The notes under the pieces are model-generated. The model was not told where the DNA came from. It worked only from the letters and a program-made list of their open reading frames with translations, and made no database searches. A program made the translations under genes and the position numbers. Below are positions 41,940 through 47,048 of a DNA stretch of 64,000 bases, piece by piece; position 1 is the first letter of the stretch, and each line of letters starts with the position of its first letter. The stretch comes from Cyanophora paradoxa CCMP329 (taxonomy: Eukaryota > Plantae > Glaucophyta): positions 162,477 through 226,476 of the forward strand of contig QPMI01000168.1 of the NCBI GenBank assembly GCA_004431415.1. Reading direction: 5' to 3'.

Positions 41940-42990
41940 GACTTCGACTTCTTAGATTATACTTTCGTCTCACGATGTTACTACGATTGGGTTTAATGCC
42001 TTCTTTCTTTAACTTTTCATTAACTTTATTCGTTTTCTTGACTCTCTCTATTCGTTTCTGTGATGGAATTTTAATAATTTCGGATTCTTTCACTTTCTGT
42101 AATTCTTGCTTTTTGAAACGTCGCTTTACTTCCTTTACTTCTCCGTCCATGTCCTCCAATACTTTAAACCGGTTACCGTCAGGTCTTCCAACTTTAAAGA
42201 CCTTCTGACTGAATCGCGCACCTTCCTTTTCAAACGCACTTTTTTTACCTTCAAACACTCGAACAGTATCACCTGGTTTTACATCAACTTTCTCATTTCC
42301 CTTTACGTTGTTATTGTGGACAGTATCCCGAAGGTAAATGTATAGCTGTTTATCTTCATCAGAATACACAGCATTTGGTGAGTCATTTTTCAAAGCACTA
42401 TGAGGCGAATTATTAGAAACATCGAGAACTTCACTTAATAGATCGATCCATTTCGTTGTCCCCTTTGCTGTCATTGCCTTCCTCAAATATTGCTTGAAAG
42501 TCCTTGTGAATCTATCGATAATTCCGAGTTTATCACCAACTGTAATATGTTCATCCTTAGCAACATCGGTATATAGTCTGACTCCATGTTCTCCGCACCA
42601 ATTGCGATAAATTGCATTGGAAAACTCATTATCTCCCGATAGAGCGGCGACCTTTCCGGCGTCCTGTTTGAACCGATTAAGAATACTTGGGATATCTTGG
42701 TTTGTTTTGAAAGGATACACGTACGCCTTTCGACTTAATATATCAATAAAACTTATCATCTTAAAAAATCCATTGTTTGCTGTTTGATATCCTTTAAAAT
42801 ACATAATGTCCACTTGAAATGATCGTGGCTTCGCAACAATTCTTAGAAATGTTTTAGGCTTTTGTGGTTTCTTAAATATCTGGTGAACTTCTGAGTTTAA
42901 AAATCGTTTTTTCAATTCTTCTTCATCAAAATTAACTTTATCATTTATCAATTTCTGGCGATACTTCTTGTAAGATAACACGTTATCCAT
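41932..42990 (-). CDS. rve (retroviral-like) integrase of Polinton type
   Basis: FQVDIM...FIDILSRKAYVYP...SGDNEF...LGIIDRFTRTFK...WIDLL...NNSPHSALK.SP; C-terminal PGDTVRV...FEK; no chromodomain seen. Confidence 0.95.
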   Translation of the reverse strand: MDNVLSYKKYRQKLINDKVNFDEEELKKRFLNSEVHQIFKKPQKPKTFLRIVAKPRSFQVDIMYFKGYQTANNGFFKMISFIDILSRKAYVYPFKTNQDIPSILNRFKQDAGKVAALSGDNEFSNAIYRNWCGEHGVRLYTDVAKDEHITVGDKLGIIDRFTRTFKQYLRKAMTAKGTTKWIDLLSEVLDVSNNSPHSALKNDSPNAVYSDEDKQLYIYLRDTVHNNNVKGNEKVDVKPGDTVRVFEGKKSAFEKEGARFSQKVFKVGRPDGNRFKVLEDMDGEVKEVKRRFKKQELQKVKESEIIKIPSQKRIERVKKTNKVNEKLKKEGIKPNRSNIVRRKYNLRSRSRA

Positions 42991-45900: not shown

Positions 45901-47048
45901 AGGTATAAGTGTCCACTTTCGATTTTCACGTATGCAACCGATGGGGTTAGGTGGGTATTTCTGGTGTTTGGTTTATAAGTGAGTTCCGGTATTTCGGTCT
46001 TGTCGTCTTTGTCGATTGTGACAAAGCCAAGACGGTAAGGAGTAAGAACTTTTTCTACGATTTCCTCGAAAGTAAAGCCCCAATCATCACCCTCAACAGG
46101 TTCACGCCCACGAATCATTTTAAATATACCTTCATGCGACCAATTCACGGATTTATACTTACCTTTCCCTTGCGCTTTCTGAAATGCTCGGGCAAAGTGC
46201 ATAACAAGGACATCGGGAACACAACGACCCACTTTAAATTTATCGCCCCGGATAAAGAGTTCCTCCAACGTTTTCGCTTGTGGGTTCGTCTCATTGCGAA
46301 TATACTTCGAAATAATCATCGGGGCATATTGAGTATCACGAAGCGGTTGTAGTTGTCTCGGTGTATAAGTTTGGTTGTCCGTAGTAATGATTCGCTCGAA
46401 TGTCACGATGTTACCGTAAATATCATTTTGAACTACTACAAAGTACCGAAAATCCCGATTTCCCGCATTCTCTTTTAGAATTGCAAACATGAACTCTTGG
46501 ATATTCTCAACGCCCATCAGAGCTGGGAAGGTATTAAATGTGGTATTGATTTTGTCGAGTGCATTTAAAAAATTCGCTTTGGAACACTGAATGGAGAGCG
46601 GTTGGTTACTACTTGTCTTCTTCATCTCGTAGTAGAACGTACCATCTTCTTCGACTACATTAGAGTTAGCGGGCAATTTTGGGATCTGATCGGGTGTTAT
46701 GTCCTTGTAAATGCGGACATGCAAAGTTACCATGTTTCCGGGTGAGTTCTGGACATATTCGCGCAGGCTCGACATCATTTTCTCGAACGGATCCCGACGC
46801 TTGCGCGCCACCTTCTCGGCTTTCGCCGCCTTCTTCTGTTGCTTACGCTCAAACCGTTGGTAAAGAACACGATTCAGTTCAGTAATGGTATTATCTAACT
46901 TCTCCTCTCTCGGACGCTGGTAAGTGATCAGATCAAGGTACTCCTCAAACTTCTCACGAGTGATTTTATCGGTCACAAAGGCTTCCATCGCCTTCGCCAC
47001 CGTCTCTTGCTTCTTCTTTCGCAGTCTCAGATTCGATGCTCGGGGCAT
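42990..47048 (-). CDS. Fusion: putative TP/vOTU region + derived protein-primed PolB + SF1B (Pif1/RecD-like) helicase + HNH-like nuclease
   Basis: PolB motifs A YENDGCKEY, B KKQMLVSNIG and C SVNTDCVY; helicase motifs GIVPGVGKT, IFIDE, GDPYQNPP, YAYTCHVVQGDT and YTAITR; C-terminal CLRC...SVDRINNALPH..N...CN; N-terminal GRCV...GHLY. Confidence 0.88.
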   Translation of the reverse strand: MPRASNLRLRKKKQETVAKAMEAFVTDKITREKFEEYLDLITYQRPREEKLDNTITELNRVLYQRFERKQQKKAAKAEKVARKRRDPFEKMMSSLREYVQNSPGNMVTLHVRIYKDITPDQIPKLPANSNVVEEDGTFYYEMKKTSSNQPLSIQCSKANFLNALDKINTTFNTFPALMGVENIQEFMFAILKENAGNRDFRYFVVVQNDIYGNIVTFERIITTDNQTYTPRQLQPLRDTQYAPMIISKYIRNETNPQAKTLEELFIRGDKFKVGRCVPDVLVMHFARAFQKAQGKGKYKSVNWSHEGIFKMIRGREPVEGDDWGFTFEEIVEKVLTPYRLGFVTIDKDDKTEIPELTYKPNTRNTHLTPSVAYVKIESGHLYLLNENLKSLTHSFNGSKSNSDTNLSVGSRFKIIKQRKHREFAATPEDIVKIINSEEMKNQSKISICYSGYLDDLLKTFIVDVNYQVHAGLSPMRKVTHIHFMYGEKSITITPPGSDTDVETAYQINFKDAEYRDKFERLNLLMYLSLVNTNNMSTYNDQTATAFRIGSQTALRGFFDLDKETIEEIWWNRNIYENDGCKEYAAIIAKQIEFVPVISKFDYFQKTVVTSVEQIENCNFYYVKLKSKFFKTMKNSDGTTYELNIYDRYKRMLIDSRYNVIPGLVLKKHYEDLKDDITIKAVLRPYKLVPNYSCDVIKQIMESDLHPTDKKQMLVSNIGQIGKQKNHKVKTTIFNKRDDAVEFQKQHGGEVKLYVFGKDPTTYDPTCYVVAEENITEPHFYYVNQEAEKYLTNGFLPFHNLMYSIMRMNLYEKTVELSKKGSYPISVNTDCVYTISCDPIETYTFDRNNYDNIGKFSVNHCPNFIKKFIGKNKEFELKKLHYGKIERDEDFLKLEKLNYIVHSVVDEYNTPAICDTLETLKRCIILGIVPGVGKTFIATQLAKRYQNPLFIVPTNKRIRDMKLQHGLHNVKTIYDALHLKVDDSNMDEVVGGNAAGLAEYDAIFIDEICQFTVSELAALAHIMLVLFPDKVYIATGDPYQNPPIQNMTVDQKQYYSYILRLLFQNELVLKVNKRHKSQKDKDTVEAIKQDLFDGMSIPDVIKKYKFETVDTLGKDDRAIVYTNRKAAEVNLQLHKMNHGEDVPIYAKGVEIVAKQRIVKSGVTIHNGFTYTIKAFDDKEFVIEDVATNEVITLDPPAMRYFALPYAYTCHVVQGDTIECENGNIVIYESGAPYVSAEWFYTAITRTTELSRVKIYHDGYEWADFVVNMKKFNERLEQYKEQDRKANRPFDEKDYVNWEWIKKRYGKQYGHCLRCYGGMDFDLSVISVDRINNALPHTTKNCFLSHIKCNCAAQ

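What the first reader, a model, noticed from the sequence alone, without database searches (positions are those of the whole stretch)
42990..47048. Whole replisome in one polypeptide: vOTU + derived pPolB + Pif1-like helicase + HNH nuclease
Seen: PolB motifs A (~45300-45326), B (~44895-44925) and C (~44559-44570), separated by ~135 and ~115 aa, which leaves room for the TPR1/TPR2 inserts of protein-primed polymerases. Motif C is NTD rather than DTD and motif A is DGCKEY. I could not find Exo I-III motifs. A full SF1B helicase motif set follows, then a CxxC...DRINN..H..N..CN nuclease-like tail. Inference: a probably non-proofreading polymerase coupled to its own helicase, with a nuclease that might resolve intermediates or aid excision. 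Related fusions may already be known in some PLVs, so novelty needs testing.
Basis: partly seen in the sequence, partly recalled or inferred. Interest (0 to 1): 0.8.

Follow-up and report, generated by a model that had tools for sequence, protein, structure and literature searches.

The report
Polinton-like virus polymerase-helicase fusion gene

Summary
ORF 42990-47048 (-) encodes, in order, an OTU-fold domain (C276, H380), a phi29-like protein-primed polymerase core (fold match Z 14.6), a Pif1/RecD-type SF1B helicase and a zinc-binding HNH-like tail. No exonuclease site is conserved, though a remnant of that domain seems to remain. The gene lies in a 10,807-bp element with identical 507-bp inverted ends, a 5-bp target duplication, an rve-type integrase, an A32 ATPase and a likely capsid gene.

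The architecture is not new. It is the 'Tlr1-like helicase' or pPolB-S1H of polinton-like viruses (Krupovic 2016, 2024), HNH tail included. 95 of 110 full-length relatives keep all nine catalytic positions, and this scan met the fusion on other DNA before.

'Whole replisome' overstates: no terminal-protein fold was shown, and the tail looks accessory (absent in 6 of 110; it tracks the core poorly). Small additions: the tail has Arg where HNH enzymes have the catalytic His (as in PacI), this sub-clade lacks the motif-B Asn, and the replicase stop overlaps the integrase start (TAATG) here and in a 24%-identical relative. Polymerase activity is predicted, not shown. Interest is low.

The parts
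41428..41432 (+). Left copy of the 5-bp target-site duplication (GCATG)
41433..41939 (.). Left terminal inverted repeat, 507 bp, 100% complementary to the right one; begins AG; holds short internal tandem repeats
41932..42990 (-). rve-type integrase, 352 aa; its ATG overlaps the replicase stop (TAATG) and its stop lies inside the left repeat
   Evidence: Pfam rve E 6.4e-4, below the curated cut-off; PDB integrase 2x6n E 0.0024; homologue in L001, 26% identity, E 2e-14; junction
42990..47048 (-). pPolB-S1H ('Tlr1-like helicase') replicase, 1,352 aa: the finding
46323..47048 (-). N-terminal region (aa 1-242): long helices, then a low-confidence alpha/beta domain in the position where a terminal protein is proposed; fold not identified
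   Evidence: pLDDT about 40-60 over aa 145-230; weak conservation; position per PMC11071308 section 10
45879..46322 (-). vOTU-like cysteine protease domain (aa about 243-390), C276 and H380
   Evidence: VIA-align matches to five OTU-domain entries, Z 6.1-6.7, model range 243-390; C 109 of 110, H 110 of 110
45459..45794 (-). Likely remnant of the exonuclease domain (aa about 419-530) without conserved catalytic acids
   Evidence: phi29 alignment runs from model residue 419 and chain residue 6 (end points only); alpha/beta secondary structure; no conserved Asp/Glu pattern
44469..45446 (-). Protein-primed family B polymerase core (aa about 535-860): motif A D578/K581/Y583, motif B K710/G718/K722 (Val at the usual Asn), motif C N827-T828-D829
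   Evidence: Foldseek ranks 1-9 are phi29 polymerase, E 2.8e-8 to 1.7e-6; VIA Z 14.6, rmsd 4.9, 362 aligned; viral pPolBs
43281..44336 (-). Superfamily 1B helicase (Pif1/RecD2/Dda-like), aa about 905-1256
   Evidence: Foldseek Pif1 5fhe E 2e-16; profile hits; invariant motifs
42993..43241 (-). Zinc-binding HNH-like tail (aa about 1270-1352), DR-type: D1327-R1328, H1335, N1339, zinc ligands C1310, C1313, H1344, C1347
   Evidence: model strand-loop-strand-helix at pLDDT about 91-96; weak hits to PacI (E 0.051 and 0.13) and two PHROG HNH families (E 0.077 and 0.2); Atlas look-alike cluster with PF01844 on 84% of members
47279..47533 (-). 84-aa ORF, unassigned
   Evidence: only weak hits
47876..48625 (-). 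249-aa basic ORF, unassigned
48687..49589 (-). 300-aa ORF, probable minor capsid protein (label rests on position and a recalled N-terminal motif; no database hit)
   Evidence: no Pfam or PHROG match
49643..50869 (+). [quoted passage not shown]
   Evidence: Atlas look-alikes at 0.97-0.99 with Capsid_N on 10-18% of members, recognition 1838 (below the reliable level): a lead; no Pfam or sequence homologue
50969..51721 (+). A32-type packaging ATPase, 250 aa
   Evidence: Pfam Pox_A32 E 5e-15, above cut-off
51733..52239 (.). Right terminal inverted repeat, 507 bp; ends CT
52240..52244 (+). Right copy of the 5-bp target-site duplication (GCATG)

Best explanation
This is the single replication gene of an intact, integrase-bearing polinton-like element, a pPolB-S1H ('Tlr1-like helicase') whose polymerase core is likely active but unable to proofread, and whose HNH-like tail is likely an accessory, exchangeable nuclease. 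Shown here: the domain order, the predicted folds, the conserved catalytic residues, the absence of a conserved exonuclease site, and the element's ends and target duplication. Inferred from the family and PMC11071308: (1) an N-terminal domain would prime synthesis at the ends of a linear genome defined by the 507-bp inverted repeats; (2) the vOTU domain would cut that priming part off the polyprotein; (3) the palm would polymerise with D578 and D829 as its two metal ligands, the first Asp of motif C being dispensable; (4) the SF1B helicase would unwind ahead of it; (5) the integrase would insert the linear copy and leave the 5-bp duplication. The tail would nick or cut DNA with D1327 and N1348 holding the metal and the loop His1335 as base, in place of the usual first-strand His (by analogy with PacI). 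Its target is unknown.
For: Folds: phi29 polymerase is the best match by a wide margin (Z 14.6, 362 aligned, against 8.3 and 164 for the next, an RNA-primed PolB); OTU domains match residues 243-390; Pif1/RecD2/Dda match the helicase. Conservation at only 17-37% identity: 95 of 110 full-length relatives keep C276, H380, D578, D829, K933, E1006, R1244, H1335 and N1339 together, and 0 of 110 have DTD. Invariance of both Asp residues argues for catalysis. Literature: same architecture and same prediction in PMC11071308 section 10. Element: identical inverted ends, 5-bp duplication, 40% GC against 70% in the flanks, seven open ORFs. Selection: 18 of 25 and 10 of 11 listed differences between sequenced variants and this ORF are synonymous, against 21% of possible changes. 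Tail: six relatives end 11-16 aa after the helicase, at three well-supported separate places in the core tree plus one unresolved; tail distances correlate with the palm at 0.30 and with the helicase at 0.21, below all 200 same-size samples of core columns in each comparison (0.36-0.58). Context: a free metagenomic relative (L001) has the same replicase-integrase pair beside ATPase and capsid-like genes.
Against: No activity was measured, and one search of papers from 2024 on (6 of 8 listed) showed no assay of a pPolB-S1H by title or abstract start. The 2016 paper read the same palm as probably inactive. This protein departs further than most: Val replaces the motif-B Asn kept in 97 of 110 relatives, and position 717, where a Tyr is usual in pPolBs (recalled), is Ile. 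The terminal-protein region is unresolved. The tail is kept in 100 of 110 relatives at 34% mean identity, as high as the core, which is much for a mere passenger; its weaker correlation could come from alignment error or saturation in a short domain; and the tail-less proteins could be mis-predicted ends, which I could not check. No reference Tlr1, transpoviron or TvV-S1 sequence was put in a tree. The tail's fold was not confirmed by a structure search.
Confidence: 0.72

Rival explanations
1. The palm is a catalytically dead scaffold and the protein works as a helicase and origin-binding factor, with DNA synthesis done by a host or helper-virus polymerase (the 2016 reading).
For: First Asp of motif C is lost in 110 of 110 relatives; PMC5499653 section 8 reports loss of motif 4 and predicts inactivity; this protein also lacks the motif-B Asn.
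Against: D578 and D829 are invariant (110 of 110 each), K710 109 of 110 and the motif-A aromatic residue 109 of 110. PMC11071308 lists active polymerases lacking the same Asp and reverses the earlier view. No other polymerase gene fits in the element (92% coding between the repeats).
Confidence: 0.15
2. The tail is a fixed working part: it cuts the element's ends or resolves replication intermediates and is paired with the integrase made from the overlapping downstream gene. This can hold together with an active polymerase.
For: Kept in 100 of 110 relatives with conserved metal and zinc ligands; tail distances correlate with the core above chance (0 of 499 permutations for palm and helicase); the TAATG overlap with the integrase is shared with L001 at about 25% protein identity; PMC12220804 notes HNH-helicase genes immediately upstream of the rve integrase (passage).
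Against: Lost outright in six relatives at several places in the tree, and only weakly coupled to the core; replaced by GIY-YIG in Tlr1 and absent in transpovirons in the literature; rve integrases cut and join without a partner nuclease (established knowledge).
Confidence: 0.25
3. The long ORF is an assembly chimera or a new, undescribed architecture.
For: No hit in the word-indexed search, none in PDB by single sequence, none in IMG/VR scans.
Against: 316 clusters by exhaustive HMMER search, 110 of the best 150 being 1,100-1,650 aa with the same order of motifs; published descriptions; contigs of other runs cover the gene and bridge the left junction.
Confidence: 0.02

Closest known systems
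pPolB-S1H fusion proteins ('Tlr1-like helicases') of polinton-like viruses, Tlr1 elements and transpovirons (Krupovic, Yutin, Koonin 2016, PMC5499653; Krupovic et al. 2024, PMC11071308)
   Same: Length 1,000-1,400 aa; N-terminal variable domains, vOTU with Cys and His, protein-primed palm lacking the first motif-C Asp, no exonuclease site, SF1 helicase, C-terminal HNH as in the PLV members.
   Different: Only 24-34% identical to any sequence found. A sub-clade lacking the motif-B Asn (10 of 111 have Val). One zinc ligand is His instead of Cys (His in 2 of 110 relatives). A structural remnant of the exonuclease domain seems to persist, where the papers (passages read) say the domain is lacking.
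Tlr1 element of Tetrahymena thermophila
   Same: Gene set: pPolB-S1H, rve integrase, capsid proteins, packaging ATPase, no maturation protease (PMC5499653 passage).
   Different: Tlr1 has a GIY-YIG tail, this one an HNH-like tail. This element is 10.8 kb with seven ORFs.
Mavirus pPolB
   Same: vOTU plus palm, first motif-C Asp missing, most of the exonuclease lost; among the top viral fold matches (E 7e-9).
   Different: Mavirus has a separate superfamily 3 helicase gene; here an SF1B helicase is fused.
OmPLV helicase-pPolB of Oxyrrhis marina (PMC12721341)
   Same: SF1 helicase fused to a pPolB in a PLV.
   Different: OmPLV keeps a complete exonuclease domain and is about 1,500 aa in a 25-kb element (abstract and introduction).
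PacI and His-Me finger group 20 (PMC5714182)
   Same: Zinc-bound HNH-type finger without the first-strand catalytic His; best solved-structure hit for the tail (E 0.051, weak).
   Different: PacI uses a loop Tyr; this family has His at the conserved loop position (97 of 110; Tyr 3 of 110). Here it is a tail of a replicase, not a stand-alone restriction enzyme.

Membership tests
pPolB-S1H / Tlr1-like helicase | 1,000-1,400 aa protein with an SF1 helicase in the C-terminal part | tested here: met
   1,352 aa; helicase at aa 905-1256
pPolB-S1H / Tlr1-like helicase | Palm domain of the protein-primed PolB type with motifs A, B and C | tested here: met
   phi29 polymerase best in Foldseek and VIA-align; motifs conserved
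pPolB-S1H / Tlr1-like helicase | TPR1 and TPR2 subdomains | tested here: inconclusive
   Spacings of 132 and 119 aa and a beta-rich insert after motif B fit, and phi29 aligns over 362 residues against at most 174 for RNA-primed PolBs; no residue-level superposition was available
pPolB-S1H / Tlr1-like helicase | vOTU domain before the palm with catalytic Cys and His | tested here: met
   OTU matches on aa 243-390, Z 6.1-6.7 (middling, but five OTU entries agree); C276 109 of 110, H380 110 of 110
pPolB-S1H / Tlr1-like helicase | No proofreading exonuclease site | tested here: met
   No conserved Asp/Glu pattern in aa 385-575; a structural remnant may persist
pPolB-S1H / Tlr1-like helicase | First Asp of motif C replaced | tested here: met
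   NTD here; K 57, N 26, H 11, R 11, others 5, D 0 of 110
pPolB-S1H / Tlr1-like helicase | C-terminal HNH (PLVs) or GIY-YIG (Tlr1) nuclease domain | tested here: met
   By motif, modelled secondary structure and concordant weak hits; a structure search on the tail did not run
pPolB-S1H / Tlr1-like helicase | Terminal-protein-like middle domain | tested here: inconclusive
   Alpha/beta domain at pLDDT about 40-60; no match listed
pPolB-S1H / Tlr1-like helicase | Groups with Tlr1, transpoviron and PLV reference sequences in a tree | not tested
   No named reference sequences were fetched; relatives found are unnamed
Integrase-bearing polinton-like virus (Tlr1 type) | Terminal inverted repeats and a 5-6 bp target duplication | tested here: met
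   507 bp, 100%; GCATG on both sides
Integrase-bearing polinton-like virus (Tlr1 type) | A32 packaging ATPase | tested here: met
   Pfam Pox_A32 E 5e-15
Integrase-bearing polinton-like virus (Tlr1 type) | rve integrase | tested here: met
   Weak but concordant: Pfam rve E 6.4e-4, PDB integrases E 0.002-0.016, homologue in L001, and the duplication itself
Integrase-bearing polinton-like virus (Tlr1 type) | [quoted passage not shown] | tested here: inconclusive
   Atlas look-alikes 0.97-0.99 with capsid families on 10-18% of members, low recognition; not folded
Integrase-bearing polinton-like virus (Tlr1 type) | Minor capsid protein | tested here: inconclusive
   300-aa ORF without Pfam or PHROG match; label is recalled
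Polinton / Maverick (classical) | Full pPolB with exonuclease, and a maturation protease gene | tested here: not met
   No exonuclease site; no protease among seven ORFs by Pfam, though two small ORFs are unassigned
His-Me finger group 20 (PacI-like) | First-strand catalytic His absent | tested here: met
   R1328; Arg in 98 of 110, His in none of the six commonest residues listed
His-Me finger group 20 (PacI-like) | Loop Tyr as substitute base | tested here: not met
   His in 97 of 110, Tyr in 3 of 110 at position 1335; equivalence to the PacI Tyr is inferred, no alignment to PacI was displayed

The most novel reading that the evidence does not exclude
This seven-gene element is a near-minimal self-replicating virus whose replicase is an active polymerase stripped of proofreading and of the motif-B Asn, and whose DR-type nuclease tail forms a working cassette with the integrase: both come from one transcript through a conserved stop-start overlap (TAATG), the tail cuts the element out or trims its ends, and tails are swapped among elements to change specificity.
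Probability: 0.12. Interest if true: 0.6.

Novelty: new member of a known kind. Interest (0 to 1): 0.2.

Why it matters
As an architecture it changes nothing: it has been in print since 2016 and, with the vOTU domain, since 2024. Its use is practical. Whether pPolB-S1H proteins polymerise is an open point (predicted inactive in 2016, predicted active in 2024), and this is an intact gene under apparent purifying selection, in a complete small element of an organism with at least 20 public sequencing runs, so it is a usable candidate for the assay. The family counts here (two invariant Asp residues in 110 of 110; a tail that is lost and poorly coupled to the core; a PacI-like active site) sharpen what to test.

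Tried and rejected
Word-indexed protein searches found nothing for the whole protein, the capsid candidate or the tail alone; the exhaustive search did, so those blanks are a sensitivity limit. Five IMG/VR scans and the phage records gave no relative. Single-sequence PDB searches were blank or noise. The wide structure search on the helicase-tail model never ran because the machine was busy, so the tail's fold rests on motifs and weak hits. No genome is held for the window, so copies could not be counted. 'Smallest PLV' was considered and dropped: reviews give 14-40 kb, but the supplement of PMC12220804 lists a minimum of 8,306 bp for one host (part 1 of 46 read), and one search (15 of 104 listed) gave no paper on the point. 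Expression of the replicase is not shown: no listed holder is on record as RNA, and the contigs over the gene look like host read-through on the opposite strand. Lack of contig cover over the capsid genes at 95% identity is no evidence of silence. The host lineage could not be told from a 49-aa ribosomal protein piece. An intein around the tail was considered: the model shows no extra domain and the ORF ends four residues after N1348. One paper search for a TAATG overlap in polinton-like viruses returned 0 papers with 4 of 5 terms.
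Full report
OBSERVATION. The finding is a single open frame, 42990-47048 on the minus strand, 1,352 aa. Pfam sees only the helicase, weakly.

SETTING. The gene lies in an island of 40% GC inside DNA of 70% GC. The island, 41433-52239 (10,807 bp), has 507-bp inverted ends that are 100% complementary, begins AG, ends CT, and is flanked by GCATG on both sides. It holds seven ORFs covering 92% of the span between the repeats: an rve-type integrase (Pfam E 6.4e-4, below cut-off; PDB integrases E 0.002-0.016), the replicase, two unassigned ORFs of 84 and 249 aa, a probable minor capsid protein (label recalled, no hit), a likely major capsid protein (Atlas look-alikes 0.97-0.99, capsid families on 10-18% of members, low recognition score) and an A32 ATPase (E 5e-15). 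No protease gene was recognised. The host is a eukaryote with short introns and a GC-rich genome; its lineage was not determined. The element sits in an exon of a host coiled-coil gene whose frame continues across the target duplication and carries an upstream in-frame stop.

RELATIVES. An exhaustive search with aa about 317-1083 gave 316 clusters at E up to 0.001; the best 150 were listed, at 23-34% identity. I kept the 110 of those 150 that are 1,100-1,650 aa long and dropped 40 shorter ones. Among the 110: C276 109, H380 110, D578 110, K581 100, Y583 104 (F 5), K710 109, G718 110, D829 110, K933 110, E1006 110, Q1039 110, R1244 110, H1335 97, N1339 100. 95 of 110 keep nine catalytic positions together. 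None has DTD (K 57, N 26, H 11, R 11 at the first position). The Atlas gave look-alike clusters of 1,200-1,340 aa at 0.96-0.98, one with HNH on 84% of 64 members. Pfam named HNH in only 3 of 32 relatives scanned, all below cut-off. One metagenomic contig (L001) holds a relative at 24% identity followed by an integrase, with ATPase and capsid-like genes upstream.

FOLDS. Residues 1-890, folded with 56 sequences (mean pLDDT 79.5), match phi29 DNA polymerase first: Foldseek ranks 1-9, E 2.8e-8 to 1.7e-6; VIA-align Z 14.6, rmsd 4.9, 362 aligned, against Z 8.3 and 164 aligned for the next chain. Viral matches are largely protein-primed polymerases, mavirus among them; the top one is an unnamed 999-aa protein. 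Five OTU-domain entries match aa 243-390 at Z 6.1-6.7, a middling score backed by the invariant Cys and His. The phi29 alignment starts at model residue 419 and chain residue 6, so aa about 419-530 probably descend from the exonuclease domain; only end points were given, and no catalytic acids are conserved there. Residues 145-230, where a terminal protein is proposed, are unresolved. Residues 880-1352 (55 sequences, mean pLDDT 90.6) match Pif1, RecD2 and Dda (best E 2e-16). The tail is modelled as strand, loop, strand, helix; a structure search on it did not run.

WHAT IS KNOWN. PMC5499653 (passages and section 8 read) describes 1,000-1,400-aa Tlr1-like helicases with a pPolB palm, TPR1 and TPR2, no exonuclease, and C-terminal HNH domains in PLVs (GIY-YIG in Tlr1); it predicts an inactive polymerase. 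PMC11071308 (passages and section 10 read) adds the vOTU with conserved Cys and His, renames the proteins pPolB-S1H, predicts that they are active and treats the nuclease tails as homing-endonuclease insertions. That is the architecture of this finding. I saw no figures or supplements of these two papers, so I cannot say whether their alignments already show the DR-type tail or the exonuclease remnant. PMC12721341 (part 1 of 7 read) is a different fusion with a complete exonuclease. PMC10120064, PMC12220804, PMC12747079, PMC5714182, PMC4081073, PMC3384342 and 10.64898/2026.10.13.758929 were read as passages, plus section 6 and part 1 of 46 of supplement 1 of PMC12220804. Earlier notes of this scan report the same fusion on other DNA; nothing near this window or by sequence.

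HOW IT LIKELY WORKS. Shown: domain order, predicted folds, conserved residues, element ends. Inferred: an N-terminal domain primes at the ends of a linear genome; vOTU releases it; the palm polymerises with D578 and D829; the helicase unwinds; the integrase inserts the copy and leaves the 5-bp duplication. Invariance of both Asp residues at about 30% identity favours an active enzyme. Against it, this protein has Val at the motif-B Asn (Asn in 97 of 110), a trait shared with nine relatives, eight of them in its own 12-member clade (support 0.95). Selection on the gene appears current: of differences listed between contigs of two DNA runs and this ORF, 18 of 25 and 10 of 11 are synonymous, against 21% of possible changes (taken from the 40 rows shown of 720, one site in both sets, no correction for transition bias). 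Element contigs have about 2.5-3 times the depth of flank contigs and differ from the window copy, which suggests several related copies, though depth is no copy number.

THE TAIL. It has Arg where HNH enzymes have the catalytic His (R1328; 98 of 110) and a conserved loop His. PacI also lacks that His and uses a loop Tyr (PMC5714182, PMC4081073), and PacI is the best solved-structure hit for the tail, weakly (E 0.051 and 0.13). For an accessory role: six relatives end 11-16 aa after the helicase, as a clade of three, two single branches sister to tail-bearing proteins (support about 1.0) and one unresolved branch; four more failed my tail filter. Tail distances correlate with the palm at 0.30 and with the helicase at 0.21, below all 200 same-size samples of core columns in each comparison (0.36-0.58, 101 sequences). 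For a working role: 100 of 110 keep it, its mean identity (34%) equals the core's, the correlation is above chance (0 of 499 permutations), and the replicase stop overlaps the integrase start as TAATG both here and in L001. I put the accessory reading ahead, without excluding the other.

TRANSCRIPTS. Contigs of six runs guessed to be RNA were laid. In the four runs a contig lacks two GT..AG introns of the host gene (59 and 55 nt) and continues 101 nt into the left repeat, so the insertion exists outside this assembly; the two runs fit the same form by length. Identical contigs continue from 41673 to between 42848 and 44274. One contig of X16 skips a 55-nt GT..AG stretch (43989-44043) on the plus strand, antisense to the replicase. 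This points to host read-through in antisense and gives no evidence that the replicase is expressed.

VERDICT. Observation confirmed; interpretation right on domains, overstated on 'whole replisome', wrong on novelty. It is a new, divergent member of the pPolB-S1H family in an intact small polinton-like element. Interest 0.2.

Noticed in passing
window 42988-42992 (minus strand); L001 13922-13926: The replicase stop codon overlaps the integrase start codon (TAATG) in both elements, although the proteins are only about 25% identical. It may reflect coupled translation or just tight packing; two cases only.
   Followed up: partly
window 40879-41432 and 52245-52480: The element interrupts an exon of a spliced host coiled-coil gene (introns 41127-41185 and 41311-41365); the frame continues after the duplication and has an in-frame TAG upstream.
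   Followed up: partly
window 41366-44274: Spliced host transcripts run into the left repeat, and identical contigs cover the integrase and the helicase end; one has a cryptic plus-strand intron at 43989-44043, which suggests antisense read-through over the integrase and replicase genes.
   Followed up: partly
window 49520-51560: Short contigs from related capsid and ATPase sequences reach very high depth in some DNA and RNA-guess runs, hinting at a larger family of related elements sharing the structural module; depth cannot rank genes.
   Followed up: no
window 41475-41720 and the mirror in 51950-52200: The terminal repeats hold a 74-nt duplicated block and about four tandem 21-nt units, possible origin or integrase-binding sites.
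   Followed up: no
window 42990-47048: Third-position GC of the replicase (0.49) and capsid candidate (0.44) is higher than that of the integrase, ATPase and minor capsid candidate (0.32-0.33).
   Followed up: no
window 45314-45306 and 44570-44568: Across the family a Lys or Arg three residues after the motif-A Asp is nearly fixed (108 of 110), and the first motif-C position is mostly basic or amide (K, N, H, R), which may compensate for the lost Asp.
   Followed up: no
window 35997-39833 and 54000-60000: Host flanks hold clusters of leucine-rich-repeat genes (69-nt repeat unit) and TPR-like repeat genes; 35054-35160 and 52665-52771 are a 107-nt inverted pair at 97%.
   Followed up: no
L001 970-15090: A free metagenomic element with the same replicase-integrase pair, an ATPase and several capsid-like genes, on a 17.6-kb contig; no terminal repeat within the 15.5 kb held.
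   Followed up: partly
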